The notes under the pieces: generated by a model
What the model saw: only the letters and a program-made list of their open reading frames with translations
What the model was told of the DNA's origin: nothing
The model's database searches: none
NCBI RefSeq assembly: GCF_009914755.1
Contig: NC_060930.1
Length of the DNA stretch: 64,000 nucleotides
Source: the human T2T-CHM13v2.0 reference genome, Homo sapiens
Direction: 5' to 3' (one strand)
Translations under genes and position numbers: made by a program
Part shown: in pieces, positions 1,895-55,047 of the stretch
How positions within the stretch are numbered: position 1 is the stretch's first letter
How the letters are laid out: each line of letters starts with the position of its first letter

Positions 1895-3870
<1,976 letters not shown>

Positions 3871-47241: not shown

Positions 47242-48562
47242 TCACGTAGATTTTGGGCAAATTGTTTTCCAAAATCTGTTAGCATAATTCTACAGAATGT
47301 CAAAAAGATAAAGACATCCACCAGTAAACCCTAATTGTTTGATGGTTGTAAGTAGTCACTTGAGATGTGACCGCAATAGGGGCCTGCCCATGGGGAAGGT
47401 GGCATACCCACCCATCTCCTGTGCCAACATGGCGTCCCTATCTCCTGGTAGCCCTGAGGCGAGGGTCAGGTGAAGGAAGTTGGGATCATCATTTACTCAG
47501 TTTGCCTATCTGTAGAAAGGGGGTATTTGGGCTGAAGGTGGCCTGTAACTCACAGGATGATCTGTCCCCTCTTCACACTGCACCCTGCAGTGAGGGGAGC
47601 AATGACTGAGTCAACCACTGCTTTAGGCAGCGGGGGTCCTTGATAAGGAGATAAGTTTGCCACACTGGGACTGATGGTCCTCAAGTTCTTTTCCAGCACC
47701 GATATTCTAAGATTCGGTGACTCCAGAAAAGCAATAAGGCCGTTGTGAGGAGGGCAGATCCAGAGGATGATCTTCCTGGAGGGGAGGGGAAAATGTTCAG
47801 TGCATACAGTGGGTAATGGTTCATCTGAGGTGGCATCAGACTGTACAACAAGCAGGGATTGTTCTGCAGGGTTCAGGCGACTGTTAGTATTTGATCAAGA
47901 TTGGAATAGTCTCCTAAAACCTACTTGATCCTCACAGAAAAGTTCCTATCCCCATTGTGCAGATGTGGAAACTGAAGGTTAGAGATAGAAAGTTAGACCC
48001 TAGGGTGAGGCAATGGATGGCTAGGACTAGAACCCAAGGCAGGCTCCTAGGGCTCCTGCTTTTCCAGCACGCATCTACCATGCATATGTGCTACTACCAG
48101 GCCTGGCGCTAGGATTCACATCACTTTAGAGGCTGCTTGGTGAACATGGGCACCCACAAAAGCCCTGGAGAAGGCAGGTTCTTTCTCAGGAATGGCCAGT
48201 GGGTGTGAAGATCACAGTGTGGGAGAAAGATCAAGGAGGACTGAGGGCCACCCGACCAGGAATCATCTCCAGCAGCCTGTGGGTGACCGCTCGTCATCCA
48301 GATCAGCATCAGGAAGGTTCTGCACAACACCTCTAGGGAACACATGGGGATCGAGGTCCTGTGGCCGTCTTGGGGTCTGAAGATCTAGATTTAGCTTCTG
48401 GCAGTATCATGATGCAAACCTGGGCAAGTTGTTTTGTTCCCTGGACCTTGGTCTCTTCATCAGTGAAATGGAACTAATTATATTACCTCATAGGGCTATT
48501 ATAAGGCCTAATAAAAAAAAAAAAGAAAGCATCCATAAACAATGTTTACTGAGCACTAGTAG

Positions 48563-48814
<252 letters not shown>

Positions 48815-49004
48815 TAGCTAGGATGGTCTCGATCTCCTGATTTCATGATCTGCCTGCCTCGGCCTCCCAAAGTGCTGGGATTACAGGCGTGAGCCACCGC
48901 ACCTAGCCCACAACAAATTTTAGAGAGTAGGTACTATTGCTGTCCCCATTTTAGGAAACACAGAAGTTGGTTCCAGCCACAAGGAAGTGGCTTCATCCAT
49001 CATC

Positions 49005-49123
49005 AAGAAGTTGATTCCAGCCCACGTGGATGGCTTTGAGGAGTTCAAGACTTTAGTGGAGGAAGTGATGAAAGATGTGGTGGAAATAGCAAGAGAACTA
49101 AAACTGGAGTCTGGAGATGTGAC
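49005..49123 (+). mobile_element. Isolated Tigger1 internal fragment
   Basis: Aligns to 39938-40057; translates KKLIPAHVDGFEEFKTLVEEVMKDVVEIAREL. Confidence 0.85.
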
Positions 49124-49156
49124 AGGCTCCACTTTCAGTTCTCTTGCTATTCCCAC
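49080..49156 (-). ncRNA. MIR3925: microRNA precursor mir-3925 (77-nt hairpin; 5p ~49145-49124, 3p ~49110-49090)
   Basis: gtggaaatagcaagagaactaaaactggag pairs with ctccactttcagttctcttgctattcccac; the - strand reads AAGAGAACUGAAAGUGGAGCCU, which I recall as miR-3925-5p; position downstream of SRSF3 fits. Confidence 0.85.
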
Positions 49157-50401
49157 ATGACCATGGTCCAGGATCCTGAGTTTATGTTCAGGAAATAAGA
49201 CTCAGCGAAAACTTGCAGTCACTTTCATAATCATTAATGCAGAGATTCTCAATAAATTCTTAAGGCTCCACCACGCTCCAACATAAAGTAACACATTCAG
49301 TTTGTTACAGAAATGGTAATAAGGCAACACTATGCAATACTATGTGTACAATGCAGCACTTTGCAGTACCAAAATCCATGCCTACAAAGCACTGCACAAG
49401 AACACATACAAATAAAGGATATAGTAGAATGGCTGCCTGTGGGGTGGGGGCATGGAAATGACAATGGAGTGAGGGGGGAATACATGAAGCAAGAGGTGAC
49501 TAGTCAGGACCAATGATGACAGCCAGCCATCACCTGGGGAATAGGAGGGACTCATCCCACTGCACCTGAGGACTAAAAATAAAATGGAATGGAAACAAGA
49601 CCCTGGGTGAAATCACTCGGCCTGAAATACACTGGCCCTGGGCTCAAAGAGGAAAGGTGGGGACACATCCTGGGCTGCCTCATCAAACCAGGAGCCTGCA
49701 AGAGCATCCCTGTGTGTGTGTGGAGGGGGTGAGGACAAAGGGAGGGTCAACCACACCCAGTTCTGTGAGCTCAAACACCAGACTAAAGGCCACAGGCAGA
49801 CCCTCCAAGGCCTCAGGGAAGGAGTGAAGAGAAAGGCCTGGGTGGTCAGTGTCAGAGGCGGCACAGTCACATGCTGTCATGCCTATTTCACCAAGGTTTA
49901 GCCAAATGCACTATTAGGGTGTCAAGAAAATATGGATATAGGGCAACAATCCTGTGATTGTATGATGACTGTAGGCTTGATCATCATAAGGGTCCTGCCA
50001 TATGCTGGTCCAGTTGGCACACCCACCCATCTCCTGTGCCAGTGGAGTGTGCCTGTGAAACAGCAGTCAGCTCTTCTGGTGGCCCTGAGGATCGGGGTGA
50101 AGGAAGAGTGGATCTTCATTTAGTTAGTTTGCCCCTCTGCAGGAGGAGGGGAGTTGGATACAGACCTCTCCTAACAACCCGCCTGGCTACTGGAACCTTC
50201 CTGAGAAATGTGGTTAACCTCTGGGCGCAGAGCCAGCAGTTCTAGGCTCCCGTCACAAGGGGGCAGGATGGGGAAGAAAACAGGTTCTCAATTCCAGGCC
50301 TTGGACCTGTCAGGTTTGCTGGCAGGGGCAGGAAGGAGGGTGGGGTCGGGAGTGTGTGGTGGTTGATGAGGGATCCAACCATCGTTCCGCAAGAGCGGCT
50401 T

Positions 50402-51590
50402 GTTTATTAAACATGAAATGAGGGAAAAGCCTAGTAGCTCCATTGGATTGGGAAGAATGGCAAAGAGAGACAGGCGTCATTTTCTAGAAAGCAATCTTCA
50501 CACCTGTTGGTCCTCACCCATTGAATGTCCTCACCCAATCTCCAACACAGAAATGAGTGACTGTGTGTGCACATGCGTGTGCATGTGTGAAAGTATGAGT
50601 GTGAATGTGTCTATATGGGAACATATATGTGATTGTATGTGTGTAACTATGTGTGACTGGCAGCGTGGGGAGTGCTGGTTGGAGTGTGGTGTGATGTGAG
50701 TATGCATGAGTGGCTGTGTGTATGACTGTGGCGGGAGGCGGAAGGGGAGAAGCAGCAGGCTCAGGTGTCGCCAGAGAGGCTGGGAGGAAACTATAAACCT
50801 GGGCAATTTCCTCCTCATCAGCGAGCCTTTCTTGGGCAATAGGGGCAGAGCTCAAAGTTCACAGAGATAGTGCCTGGGAGGCATGAGGCAAGGCGGAAGT
50901 ACTGCGAGGAGGGGCAGAGGGTCTGACACTTGAGGGGTTCTAATGGGAAAGGAAAGACCCACACTGAATTCCACTTAGCCCCAGACCCTGGGCCCAGCGG
51001 TGCCGGCTTCCAACCATACCAACCATTTCCAAGTGTTGCCGGCAGAAGTTAACCTCTCTTAGCCTCAGTTTCCCCACCTGTAAAATGGCAGAAGTAACCA
51101 AGCTTACCTTCCCGGCAGTGTGTGAGGATGAAAAGAGCTATGTACGTGATGCACTTAGAAGAAGGTCTAGGGTGTGAGTGGTACTCGTCTGGTGGGTGTG
51201 GAGAAGACATTCTAGGCAATGAGGACTGGGGAGAGCCTGGCCCATGGCTTCCACTCAGCAAGGTCAGTCTCTTGTCCTCTGCACTCCCAGCCTTCCAGAG
51301 AGGACCTTCCCAACCAGCACTCCCCACGCTGCCAGTCACACATAGTTACACACATACAATCACATATATGTTCCCATATAGACACATTCACACTCATACC
51401 TTCACACATGCACACGCATGTGCACACACAGTCACTCATTTCTGTGTTGGAGATTGGGTGAGGACATTCAATGGGTGAGGACCAACAGGTGTGAAGATTG
51501 CTTTCTAGAAAATGACTCCTGTCTCTCTTTGCCATTCTTCCCAATCCGATGGAGCTACTAGGCTTTTCCCTCATTTCATGTTTAATAAAC
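50402..51590. repeat. Long inverted repeat: arms 50402-50682 and 51310-51590 (281 bp, 3 mismatches seen), spacer 627 bp
   Basis: Manual alignment; mirrored ORFs 50400-50699(+)/51212-51856(-) and 50514-50855(-)/51122-51478(+). Confidence 0.97.
51048..51185 (+). mobile_element. MIR fragment within the spacer
   Basis: ttaacctctcttagcctcagtttccccacctgtaaaatgg..gtgtgaggatgaaa..gcacttagaa. Confidence 0.75.
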
Positions 51591-52605
51591 CTTCCCAATG
51601 GCGAAATGGGCTTTCTCAAGAAGTGGTGAGTGTCCCATCCCTGCGGTGGGGACAGGGGTGGCAGCGGACAAGCCTGCCTGGAGGGAACTGTCAGGCTGAT
51701 TCCCAGTCCAACTCCAGCTTCCAACACCTCATCCTCCAGGCAGTCTTCATTCTTGGCTCTAATTTCGCTCTTGTTTTCTTTTTTATTTTTATCGAGAACT
51801 GGGTGGAGAGCTTTTGGTGTCATTGGGGATTGCTTTGAAACCCTTCTCTGCCTCACACTGGGAGCTGGCTTGAGTCAACTGGTCTCCATGGAATTTCTTT
51901 TTTTAGTGTGTAAACAGCTAAGTTTTAGGCAGCTGTTGTGCCGTCCAGGGTGGAAAGCAGCCTGTTGATGTGGAACTGCTTGGCTCAGATTTCTTGGGCA
52001 AACAGATGCCGTGTCTCTCAACTCACCAATTAAGAAGCCCAGAAAATGTGGCTTGGAGACCACATGTCTGGTTATGTCTAGTAATTCAGATGGCTTCACC
52101 TGGGAAGCCCTTTCTGAATGTCAAAGCCATGAGATAAAGGACATATATATAGTAGCTAGGGTGGTCCACTTCTTAGGGGCCATCTCCGGAGGTGGTGAGC
52201 ACTAAGTGCCAGGAAGAGAGGAAACTCTGTTTTGGAGCCAAAGCATAAAAAAACCTTAGCCACAAACCACTGAACATTTGTTTTGTGCAGGTTCTGAGTC
52301 CAGGGAGGGCTTCTGAGGAGAGGGGCAGCTGGAGCTGGTAGGAGTTATGTGAGATGGAGCAAGGGCCCTTTAAGAGGTGGGAGCAGCATGAGCAAAGGCA
52401 GAGAGGTGGTAATGTATAAGGTATGTCATGGGAAAGAGTTTGGCTGGAACAGAGTTTACAGAATAGAAAAATTCAACACTATTAATTGAGCCTCTACTAC
52501 GTGCTCGACATTGTTCTAGTCACTGAGATAGGTTTGGTATACAAAACAAAATCCATCCTCTATGGACATTTTAGTGACTAACAACAATATAAATAATAAA
52601 AGTGA

Positions 52606-52890
<285 letters not shown>

Positions 52891-55047
52891 TGATCCACCT
52901 GCCTCGGCCTCCCAAAGTGCTGGGATTACCGGCGTGAGCCACCGCCCCCGGCTCCAGGCACTATTTTGAGTATATATTTATTCATTTAATCCTCAAAGCA
53001 CCCGCATGAAGTAGTAGCATTGTTATTCCCATTTCATGGATGAGGAAGTAAAGGCATTGAATGGTGGAGGCAGAATTCAAACCCAGAGCCCATGTGGTGA
53101 CCATGATGCTCCCCTACTCCACGAGAATAAGAAAGTAGCCAAAAGTCCAGTCAACCAGGGAACAAGGGCACGTCTGGAGAGTGGTGAATACTGGGCAGGG
53201 GGAGTGGGGAGCTGGTGGTTTTGGAAGATTAATCTGGAAATGTGTGGAGTTGATGGGAGGACAGGTAGCTGGAGGGATATGGGGCCTCACTCGGGAGGAG
53301 AAAAAGAGTGAAGACAGAGAAGAATCAGTATAGGGCTTGGAACATTTCTCAGGTCATATCTTAACAGGAATTAGTGAACTTGGCAGAAATCATTTCCTCC
53401 CTGGTCAAAGTGGACTGATTACCAGTTCACCATGGGTTAGGCTTTTTGTTTTTATTCACTGAAATTCATGAGGAGTGAGAGGGCCTTTCTGGGGCTCACA
53501 GGCTCAGCCAGATGATGTGATGATGCTTTGCATAGTGCTCAGGCCTTCTGTCCAGATTCCCTCAGCCGATCCCCAAACTTGGTGTTTAGATGAGTTGTAC
53601 ACCCACTCCCATCCGCCACTCTAACCCACACCTGTCCCCTCTTCCCTTCTCTTCATGGCAGGGCCCTTCACATTTCTTTTTTCTTTGAGATGGAGTCTCA
53701 CTCTGTCACCCAGGCTGGAGCGCAGTGGTACAATCTCGGTTCACTGCAACCTCCGCCTCCTGGTTTCAAGTGATTCTCCTGCCTCAGCCTCCCAAGTGGC
53801 TGGGATTACAGGTGCACCACCACACCTGGCTAATTTTGTATTTTTGGTGGACACAGGGTTTCATCACGTTGGCCAGGCTGGTCTCGAACTCCTGACCTCA
53901 AGTGATCTGCCTGCCTTGGCTTCCGAAGGTGCTGGGATTACAGGCGTGAGCCACTGTGCCTGGCCCACATTTCTTTTTGAGAAATTCCGACACCAGCCCC
54001 TTGGTGGCCAGTCTGCAGACCCCTTGCATGGCCAGAGCCACACTTTTACACAGGTGACACCACTGCTCTTGTCTCCCTGTCTGCCCATCACTGCCACACC
54101 TGATCCAGACTCCCACAAGCACAAGCCAGACCTCTGTTCCAGCCTCTTCCAGTTTTCCTCCATGTTTCCTGAATGGATATAGGATCTCACCGTGCCTTAG
54201 GTAAGAGTAGCCAACTTTATTTTTTGGCTGCTGTCAGTTCAGCCTCTTAGAGTGCCCCTCCCCACACCTTCACACATACCATTGGGCACATGGCTTTGCC
54301 AAGCCTCCTTTTCACTGTGCACTGCCTTGGGGGGAAAGGCCTTGTCCCCTGGAAGCCCAGAAGGGCCTGGACCCTCAGGCACCTTGTGACCCTACCCACC
54401 AGGGTCCATTCTTCCCCAGAGTACCCCCTGCCCTACCCTCTCCCTCCCACCCTAGCTCTGCTCTGTCCCTCAAAATTCAACTCCAACTTCAGGCACATAC
54501 CTCCCTCCGGGCCAAGGCAGGGACAAGGGGTTAGGTGCTCCCATGAGCTGGGAACGATGTCAAGAGCTGATTTCAAGATTGCTCTTCAAGAACTTCCTCA
54601 GCCTGGCTGACATAGGCCTTGAGGGCTGGGAATTCCCACCTGGGAATCTTTCCAATATTCTGCCAGCTGTTTCTTCTCTTTCAGTGGTTTTATTATTTTT
54701 TTCTTTCTGTTCCACCGCCTCCTTTCGCTTTCAGTATGGGAGCTCAGGCAGAATGGTGGAGGAGGGTGGGGACCTGGCATTTGCTGAGTTAGGAGCTGTG
54801 GCCAAGGCCAGCTATGCCAAGGGAGAGGACAGGATACAGGAGGAAACAGGGCTGGGCACAGTGGCTCATGCCTGTAATCTCAGCACTTTGGGAGGCCGAG
54901 GCGGGTGGATCACCTGAGGTCGGGAGTTTGAGACCAGCCTGACCAACATGGAGAAACCCCGTCTCTACTAAAAGTACAAAATTAGGCCGGGCATGGTGGC
55001 TCACGCCTGTAATCCCAGCACTTTGGGAGGCCAAGGCGGGCAGATCA

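What the first reader, a model, noticed from the sequence alone, without database searches (positions are those of the whole stretch)
50402..51590. 281-bp, ~99% identical inverted repeat around a 627-bp spacer
Seen: the arms differ at only 3 positions by my manual alignment and do not resemble Alu, L1 or any family I recognise. Established: near-identical close inverted repeats mediate recurrent inversions, arm-to-arm gene conversion and cruciform instability. Inference: either a very recent duplication or an older one kept homogeneous by conversion, with a spacer that may flip between haplotypes.
Basis: partly seen in the sequence, partly recalled or inferred. Interest (0 to 1): 0.8.

Follow-up and report, generated by a model that had tools for sequence, protein, structure and literature searches.

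The report
Small local inverted duplication near SRSF3
A 281-base stretch of unique human DNA was copied once, backwards, into a spot about 630 bases away, leaving a clean insertion scar; this is an ordinary kind of small human structural change, not a mobile element or a shown flip-switch.

Summary
Arms 50402-50682 and 51310-51590 are 281 nt, differ at 3 positions (98.9%) and enclose a 627-nt spacer. The arm has only these two copies in the CHM13 genome. Both flanks and the spacer are single-copy, apart from a short old dispersed-repeat core in the spacer.

New here: a 10-bp direct repeat straddles both ends of the right arm only. A TG-rich tract runs unbroken from the left arm into the spacer but stops at the right arm's edge. 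Nothing is alike beyond the arm ends.

So the right arm is a single 285-bp insertion. It is an inverted copy of the left arm, with 4- and 2-nt junction microhomology and a 4-10-bp target duplication. This fits the commonest class of non-mobile-element inversion calls in a long-read survey of 1,019 people: 277 inverted duplications, median 284 bp, mostly 1-15 bp microhomology (PMC12350158).

Arm divergence gives a rough age of 1-31 My. CHM13 still has the original spacer orientation. The locus is absent from a 612-region catalogue of inverted-repeat-mediated inversion candidates. Gene conversion, spacer flipping and presence in apes could not be tested. Interest is low.

The parts
50402..50682 (+). 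Left arm: the inferred source (parental) copy of the 281-nt repeat.
   Evidence: It sits seamlessly in its context: the TG-rich tract continues across its inner end into the spacer (TG/GT dinucleotide fraction 0.43 inside, 0.44 in the next 60 nt). No direct repeat longer than 3 nt lies at its two ends.
50683..51309 (.). 627-nt spacer: original single-copy sequence lying between the source and the insertion site.
   Evidence: one full-length match in the genome (itself). The other 39 listed matches cover only spacer positions about 350-458.
51032..51140 (.). Short core of an old dispersed repeat inside the spacer. From memory it resembles the core of the MIR SINE; no tool named it.
   Evidence: 39 other genomic places match spacer positions about 350-458 at 77-95% identity over about 35-90 nt.
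51310..51590 (-). Right arm: the inferred derived, inserted inverted copy of the left arm.
   Evidence: It is flanked by a 10-bp direct repeat. TG-richness stops at its inner end (0.17 in the next 60 nt).
51304..51313 (+). First copy of the 10-bp direct repeat ACCTTCCCAA. Its last 4 nt (CCAA) overlap the arm and form the junction-1 microhomology.
51589..51598 (+). Second copy of the 10-bp direct repeat. Its first 2 nt (AC) overlap the arm and form the junction-2 microhomology. The start-to-start distance of 285 bp is the size of the insertion.
50555..50731 (+). Imperfect TG-rich tract that spans the left arm / spacer boundary, with a short non-TG stretch at about 50655-50682.
   Evidence: Read; quantified. 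Tandem Repeats Finder reports only two tiny arrays here, so it is degenerate, not a clean microsatellite.

Best explanation
This is a one-off, locus-specific inverted duplication. A 275-281-nt piece of unique intergenic DNA (now the left arm) was copied in reverse orientation into a site 628 bp to its right.

The ancestral site held one copy of a 10-mer. The present sequence reads: 10-mer, inverted copy, 10-mer. The junctions show 4 nt (CCAA) and 2 nt (AC) of microhomology, and 4 to 10 nt of the target are duplicated.

The most likely mechanism is a replication error (inferred, not shown). The nascent rightward strand left its template, annealed through CCAA to the opposite strand about 630 nt behind, and copied 281 nt leftwards. 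It then returned to its own template a few bases upstream of where it had left. This would be a template switch within the replication fork, or microhomology-mediated repair. A near-equivalent alternative is capture of a local fragment in a staggered double-strand break.

The event is millions of years old rather than brand new, and the element is probably neutral. What it leaves behind is a substrate: two 281-bp inverted homologies that could occasionally recombine (flipping the spacer) or convert each other, and that would give a 281-bp RNA stem if transcribed through.
For: The structure is shown.

Direction of copying:
- A 10-bp direct repeat straddles both ends of the right arm, and no such repeat occurs in the other five junction pairings tested (longest 3-6 nt).
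- At random places in this window with the same spacing, a 10-mer straddling both junctions occurs in 630 of 200,000 trials (0.3%). That is about 2% after allowing for the six pairings tried.
- The TG-rich tract is continuous across the left arm's inner end (0.43 then 0.44) but not across the right arm's (0.17; window mean 0.134).

Other support:
- The event is discrete: flank-against-flank local alignments score no better than shuffles (252, 126, 89 and 29 of 300 shuffles reach the observed score).
- It is not a repeat family: only two copies exist in CHM13, and the 1-kb flanks are single-copy.
- Junction microhomologies of 4 and 2 nt are read.
- The class is known. PMC12350158 (passages) reports 277 inverted duplications with a median length of 284 bp. 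Most have 1-15 bp of microhomology, and the authors take this as a replicative origin.
- PMC9435742 (passages) reports template-switch patterns up to 318 bp.
Against: There is no outgroup and no second human haplotype, so the empty ancestral site is inferred, not seen. The 10-mer could still be chance (about 0.3-2%). The three arm differences allow an age of 1-31 My, so later gene conversion between the arms cannot be excluded. The template-switch model and the break-capture model predict the same sequence and are not separated here. The source-to-copy distance (628 bp) and the length are at or beyond the range handled by the short-range template-switch studies; one of their filters discards events with a point distance above 250 bp.
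Confidence: 0.75

Rival explanations
1. An old inverted repeat whose arms are kept nearly identical by arm-to-arm gene conversion, with a spacer that flips between haplotypes by recombination between the arms.
For: The geometry is permissive. In the part of Table S1 of PMC13629690 that I read, 6 candidate inversions have repeats of 320 bp or less around 0.6-1.6 kb. Four of the 6 are marked polymorphic (HsInv0031, 0045, 0098, 0147). Identity of 98.9% is higher than usual for old repeats.
Against: The arm ends are sharp, with no decayed similarity beyond them. An intact 10-bp target duplication and the TG-tract continuity show that CHM13 is in the original post-insertion orientation. The longest uninterrupted identity is only 116 nt. 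No coordinate beginning 3660-3663 occurs in the catalogue of 612 candidate regions merged from calls on 195 individuals. The hg38 position I searched for (about chr6:36,623,7xx-36,624,9xx) rests on recalled gene coordinates.
Confidence: 0.1
2. A functional hairpin-RNA locus. The minus-strand primary transcript of MIR3925 or another transcript would read through the repeat and form a 281-bp double-stranded RNA, which is processed or edited.
For: The RNA fold gives an almost uninterrupted 281-bp stem, -746.7 kcal/mol. MIR3925 lies 1.25 kb away on the minus strand, downstream of the repeat in that direction of transcription (hub annotation). PMC5398296 (abstract) reports that 7.8% of intergenic human inverted duplicates are expressed.
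Against: No transcript is annotated over 50402-51590 (hub table). No Rfam family matches inside it at E up to 1. No expression data were available. This reading concerns use, not origin, and is compatible with the best explanation.
Confidence: 0.06
3. A non-autonomous DNA transposon or foldback element with 281-bp terminal inverted repeats.
For: The overall shape is terminal inverted repeats around a core. A 3-nt CTT abuts both outer ends (read by eye).
Against: The arm has only two copies in the genome. The ends of the whole element share no direct repeat outside the arms (the 6-mers found lie inside the arms or are offset). The left arm and spacer share a continuous TG tract. The scar flanks one arm, not the element.
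Confidence: 0.02
4. An assembly artefact in T2T-CHM13, such as a fold-back chimera.
Against: The arms differ at 3 sites, are separated by 627 nt of unique sequence, and carry a target-site duplication. None of this is expected of a fold-back artefact. I could not compare with a second assembly.
Confidence: 0.02

Closest known systems
Small inverted duplications in long-read human structural-variant surveys (PMC12350158, 1,019 genomes)
   Same: A nearby segment is inserted in reverse orientation. The 285-bp size matches their median of 284 bp. The junctions carry short microhomology (4 and 2 nt here; 1-15 bp in most of theirs), which the authors read as a replicative origin.
   Different: Theirs are polymorphic calls against the reference. 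This one is in the reference-grade assembly itself, is about 1% diverged and so probably old and perhaps fixed. Its population status is unknown. My search of their held supplementary tables for this position found nothing relevant (the files were cut when stored).
Short-range template-switch mutations (four-point model; PMC9435742, PMC10710096)
   Same: Reverse-complement copying of adjacent sequence creates a perfect hairpin in one step. The longest pattern they report is 318 bp.
   Different: Typical events are tens of bases (miRNA-like stems of 30-55) and replace sequence close to the source. Here 281 nt are inserted 628 bp away with a target duplication, outside the distance filter of that work.
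Polymorphic inversions mediated by inverted repeats (InvFEST HsInv0031, HsInv0045, HsInv0098)
   Same: Repeats of about 250-300 bp around 0.6-1.1 kb, the same geometry as here.
   Different: Those repeats are pairs of SINEs that inserted independently, and both orientations have been observed. Here the repeat is a local duplication, only one orientation is seen, and the locus is not in the catalogue.
Large sex-chromosome palindromes kept alike by gene conversion (recalled, not looked up here)
   Same: Near-identical inverted arms around a unique spacer.
   Different: Those arms run from kilobases to megabases, at more than 99.9% identity, and are conserved across primates. Here the arms are 281 bp at 98.9%, with an insertion scar that points to a single event.

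Membership tests
Small replicative inverted duplication (structural-variant class) | A copy of nearby sequence present in reverse orientation | tested here: met
   281 nt, 278 of 281 identical, source 628 bp away.
Small replicative inverted duplication (structural-variant class) | Short microhomology (1-15 bp) at the junctions, not long homology | tested here: met
   CCAA (4 nt) at the inner junction and AC (2 nt) at the outer junction. Criterion taken from PMC12350158.
Small replicative inverted duplication (structural-variant class) | Size of a few hundred bp (median 284 bp in the survey) | tested here: met
   Insertion of 285 bp (spacing of the two 10-mers).
Small replicative inverted duplication (structural-variant class) | An empty (pre-insertion) allele seen in another haplotype or species | not testable with these tools
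   No second human or ape genome was available. The scan of prokaryote genome contigs for stray copies found 0.
Inverted-repeat-mediated (NAHR) polymorphic inversion | Inverted homologous repeats at both breakpoints | tested here: met
Inverted-repeat-mediated (NAHR) polymorphic inversion | Both orientations observed among individuals | tested here: inconclusive
   Only CHM13 was seen, in the original orientation. The locus is absent from the 612-region catalogue, which is not a test of this locus.
Palindrome maintained by gene conversion | Arms more alike within a species than orthologous arms are between species | not testable with these tools
   No orthologues were available.
Palindrome maintained by gene conversion | Old duplication with eroded edges or similarity extending beyond the converted core | tested here: not met
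   flank alignments are no better than shuffles.
Short-range template-switch mutation (four-point model) | Reverse-complement copy of adjacent sequence explains the change | tested here: met
Short-range template-switch mutation (four-point model) | Short range and length as handled by the published screens | tested here: inconclusive
   The length of 281 is under the longest reported (318), but the 628-bp distance exceeds a 250-bp filter quoted in PMC9435742 (the symbols naming the distance were lost in the text).
DNA transposon with long terminal inverted repeats | Multiple dispersed copies | tested here: not met
   only the two arms; the spacer is unique.
DNA transposon with long terminal inverted repeats | Target-site duplication flanking the whole element | tested here: not met
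   no direct repeat lies outside the arms at the element's two ends. The 10-mer flanks the right arm alone.
L1-mediated retrocopy (target-primed reverse transcription) | Poly(A) tail next to the target-site duplication | tested here: not met
   the arm ends in bases templated by the source and abuts the 10-mer directly, with no A tract.

The most novel reading that the evidence does not exclude
The repeat is more than a scar in one of two ways.

(a) It is a hominid-lineage long-hairpin RNA locus. It would be read through by the minus-strand primary transcript of MIR3925, whose own hairpin is a miniature inverted duplication 1.25 kb away. It would yield a 281-bp non-Alu double-stranded RNA, a rare kind of substrate for editing, dicing or innate sensing.

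(b) It is an as yet uncatalogued micro-inversion that flips recurrently between human haplotypes while the arms convert each other.

A local proneness to template switching, seeded by the TG-rich tract, would link the two inverted duplications.
Probability: 0.07. Interest if true: 0.55.

Novelty: new member of a known kind. Interest (0 to 1): 0.2.

Why it matters
On its own it matters little. It is a clean, datable example of how a single replication or repair error creates a long perfect hairpin or inverted repeat from unique DNA. The direction of copying and the junction microhomology can be read straight from one haplotype.

It could serve as a worked case for annotating the many small inverted duplications in human genomes. 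It is also a simple test locus: a 281-bp, 99% identical repeat around 627 bp can be checked for flipping or conversion in pangenome data. If it were transcribed with MIR3925, it would be one of the few long non-Alu double-stranded RNAs in the human genome.

Tried and rejected
- **Repeat family:** whole-genome searches with the arm, the spacer and both 1-kb flanks found no family.
- **Known RNA:** the Rfam search of 48000-53000 at E up to 1 gave 13 matches, none inside 50402-51590.
- **Coding:** 11 ORFs of 50 aa or more overlap the region. The longest (203 aa, 51212-51823, minus strand) is Cys/Met/Val-rich read-through of the TG tract and was dropped without a family search.
- **Residual homology beyond the arms:** none.
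- **Retrocopy:** no poly(A) tail.
- **Other haplotypes:** a scan of prokaryote genome contigs for stray human copies of a 33-nt spacer word found 0.
- **Inversion catalogues:**
  - PMC6748972 and PMC3961182 main texts have no chr6, 6p21, SRSF3 (or SFRS3) or CDKN1A mention.
  - PMC6748972 supplements show chr6 only for HsInv0058 at 31.0 Mb; 6 of its 18 files were not searched.
  - PMC13629690 tables have no matching coordinate.
  - PMC12350158 supplements gave only chance number matches.
  - The PMC5398296 supplement was unreadable.
- **Papers not held:** the Cell 2022 inversion paper by DOI, and a PMC id I recalled for a great-ape genome paper.
- **Full-text searches for this locus:** 'SRSF3' + 'CDKN1A' + 'inverted repeat' + 'inversion' gave 0 papers, and 'miR-3925' + 'SRSF3' gave 0. 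I found nothing in print on this particular repeat. These searches do not cover subscription journals or unread supplements.

Full report
**Observation**

The repeat finder on 49500-52500 gives arms 50402-50682 and 51310-51590, 281 nt, 99% complementary, 627 nt apart. Aligning the left arm against the reverse complement of the right arm, with 20-30 nt of flank on each side, shows 278 of 281 identical positions and no gaps. Similarity is lost abruptly at both ends.

The three differences are:

| Arm position | Left arm | Right arm | Bases (left / reverse complement of right) |
|---|---|---|---|
| 43 | 50444 | 51548 | T / C |
| 74 | 50475 | 51517 | C / A |
| 191 | 50592 | 51400 | A / G |

The first two sit in CpG contexts. 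The identical tracts between differences are 42, 30, 116 and 90 nt.

Of the 347 inverted pairs of at least 100 nt within 10 kb in the whole window, I saw the 25 longest. This pair is the only one of those above 86% complementarity; the others are 74-86% pairs of about 220-330 nt.

**Is it a repeat family?**

A search of the whole CHM13 genome (3.1 Gb, 24 contigs) with the left arm found five places. Two are the arms themselves (100% and 99%). Three are weak matches of 62-105 nt at 74-83% that cover only the TG-rich part of the arm, query positions about 152-258.

The 627-nt spacer has one full-length match, itself. A further 39 listed matches all cover spacer positions about 350-458 at 77-95% identity. 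That is a short core of an old dispersed repeat, at window positions about 51032-51140. From memory it resembles the MIR SINE core; no tool named it.

The 1-kb flanks on either side are single-copy. The tool warns that it scores only the best candidates and skips very common words, so very old, diverged relatives could be missed. A young repeat family would not be. Rfam has no match inside the element at E up to 1.

Three features fix which arm is the copy.

1. *A direct repeat around the right arm.* A 10-bp direct repeat, ACCTTCCCAA, lies at 51304-51313 and again at 51589-51598, so it straddles both ends of the right arm.
   - I tested six junction pairings: right arm, left arm, whole element, spacer, left arm plus spacer, spacer plus right arm. 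Only the right arm has such a repeat; the others share at most 3-6 nt.
   - As a control I took random places in this same repeat-rich window at the same spacing. An identical 10-mer touching both junctions occurred in 630 of 200,000 trials (0.3%). That is roughly 2% after allowing for the six pairings.
2. *The TG-rich tract.* It runs on without a break from the left arm into the neighbouring spacer. The TG/GT dinucleotide fraction is 0.43 in the last 120 nt of the arm and 0.44 in the next 60 nt. Next to the right arm's inner end the fraction is 0.17, and the window mean is 0.134.
3. *Nothing alike outside the arms.* Local alignments of outer flank against outer flank, and inner against inner, at 100 and 300 nt, score no better than shuffled controls. 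The numbers of shuffles reaching the observed score were 252, 126, 89 and 29 of 300.

**Reading**

These three points say that the left arm is in its native context and the right arm is a discrete 285-bp insertion (285 bp is the spacing of the two 10-mers).

The reconstructed ancestral site carried the 10-mer once. The present sequence runs through the 10-mer. Its last four bases, CCAA, are also the first four of the inverted copy, which gives a 4-nt microhomology. The sequence then carries the reverse complement of 50682 down to 50402. Its last two bases, AC, are also the first two of the second 10-mer, which gives a 2-nt microhomology. It then resumes the original sequence. Depending on how the ambiguous bases are assigned, 4 to 10 nt of target are duplicated.

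There is no poly(A) tract. The A-rich end of the arm is templated by the source. An L1-mediated retrocopy is therefore not supported.

**Mechanism (inferred)**

The simplest path is a template switch during replication. A nascent strand growing rightwards disengages at CCAA and pairs with the TTGG of the other parental strand 628 nt behind. It copies 281 nt leftwards, then returns with 2 nt of pairing to its own template a few bases upstream of its point of departure. Capture of a local fragment in a staggered break followed by fill-in would leave the same sequence. I cannot separate the two models.

Three papers give the context:
- A survey of 1,019 human genomes by long reads found that inverted duplications are the commonest class among 733 inversion-type calls outside mobile elements. 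It reports 277 events with a median length of 284 bp, mostly with 1-15 bp of microhomology, and the authors take this to suggest a replicative origin (PMC12350158, passages seen).
- Work on template-switch mutations reports patterns up to 318 bp, though most are far shorter and closer to their source (PMC9435742, passages).
- The miRNA study from the same school looked for stems of 30-55 nt (PMC10710096, passages).

The present event is thus a typical member of a known class by size and junctions, and sits at the long end of the 'template switch' range.

**Age**

Three differences in 281 nt is 1.07% (Poisson 95% range 0.22-3.1%). I used recalled substitution rates of 0.5-1.0 x 10^-9 per site per year, with both arms diverging. 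This gives a point estimate of 5-11 My and an outer range of 1-31 My.

Two of the three differences are at CpG sites, which mutate faster (established knowledge), so a younger age is likely. One non-CpG difference in 275 sites is 0.36%. 'Very recent' is therefore not the best description. The event may be human-specific or shared with African apes, and this needs orthologues that the tools here do not provide.

**Gene conversion and flipping**

Nothing in one haplotype can show conversion.

For flipping there is one positive statement. In CHM13 the 10-mer copies are in direct orientation around the right arm, and the TG tract is continuous at the left arm. So this haplotype is in the original orientation, or has flipped an even number of times.

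The geometry would allow flipping. In the part of Table S1 of PMC13629690 that I read (part 1 of 43), six candidate inversions have repeats of 320 bp or less around 0.6-1.6 kb: HsInv0021, 0031, 0045, 0049, 0098 and 0147. Four of the six are marked polymorphic. That table is biased towards places where someone had already called an inversion.

That catalogue has 612 regions. They were merged from five long-read, Strand-seq and optical-mapping studies of 195 individuals, from paired-end predictions, and from inverted segmental duplications of 1-50 kb (sections read). It holds no coordinate beginning 36623 or 36624 anywhere, and none beginning 3660-3663. The hg38 position I looked for, about chr6:36,623,7xx-36,624,9xx, is derived from recalled hg38 positions of MIR3925 and SRSF3, hence the wider second search. 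Absence from the list is weak evidence against a common inversion. It is not a genotype.

**Instability**

As single-stranded DNA the element folds with an energy of -445.8 kcal/mol, against -88.0 for the spacer alone. As RNA it folds into an almost unbroken 281-bp stem at -746.7 kcal/mol.

Cruciform-driven fragility drops steeply with spacer length. In yeast, lengthening the spacer from 12 to 100 bp lowers repeat-induced recombination 300-fold. Lengthening it from 12 to 200 bp lowers gross rearrangements about 20-fold, and a 1.5-kb spacer lowers them 31-fold. Widely spaced repeats interact readily only in long single-stranded regions (PMC10164571, passages).

**Function**

I see no evidence of one.
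- No gene is annotated over the element (hub table).
- No known RNA family matches it.
- The ORFs are short or low-complexity.

Inverted duplicates with 10-10,000-nt arms and 0-1,000-nt spacers number 4.3 million in the human genome by one count, and 7.8% of the intergenic ones are expressed (PMC5398296, abstract and section 12). So this element meets a very common definition, although its length and identity are unusual locally.

The one intriguing neighbour is MIR3925, 1.25 kb to the left on the minus strand. Its hairpin is itself a tight inverted duplication: 34-nt arms, 88% complementary as DNA, with a 9-nt gap. Folded as RNA it has 24 contiguous pairs, with z = -10.2. A minus-strand primary transcript starting to the right of 51590 would read through the large repeat before reaching the miRNA. 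This is speculation and is scored as the novel case.

**Verdict**

This is a real feature, correctly described. It is a single, locus-specific inverted duplication with a readable insertion scar, of the commonest size class of such events in humans. It is probably millions of years old and probably neutral.

Novelty: a new member of a known kind. Interest: low (0.2).

Noticed in passing
window 49080-49156 (minus strand, MIR3925): The annotated miRNA hairpin is itself a miniature inverted duplication: 34-nt arms 49080-49113 / 49123-49156, 88% complementary as DNA, with a 9-nt gap. Its RNA fold has 24 contiguous pairs (-50.8 kcal/mol, z = -10.2). It weakly matches several unrelated miRNA families on both strands, all below gathering score. 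So two inverted duplications of very different size lie within 2.5 kb.
   Followed up: partly
window 48626-48773 and 52669-52952: Matches to the signal-recognition-particle RNA model below its gathering score (63.8, 42.9 and 41.3 bits against 70), with overlapping weak mir-1268 and mir-3135 matches. This is the usual signature of Alu elements, which bracket the unique block that holds the repeat.
   Followed up: no
window 51212-51823 (minus strand): A 203-codon ATG-to-stop ORF runs through the right arm. Its translation is Cys/Met/Val-rich where it crosses the TG/CA tract and looks like chance read-through. It was not searched against any library.
   Followed up: no
window 49929-49964 versus 50604-50639 and 51353-51388: A 36-nt stretch 440 bp left of the left arm is 75% like part of the arm's TG-rich section, in direct orientation to the left arm and inverted to the right. 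This is probably low-complexity resemblance rather than an older duplication.
   Followed up: no
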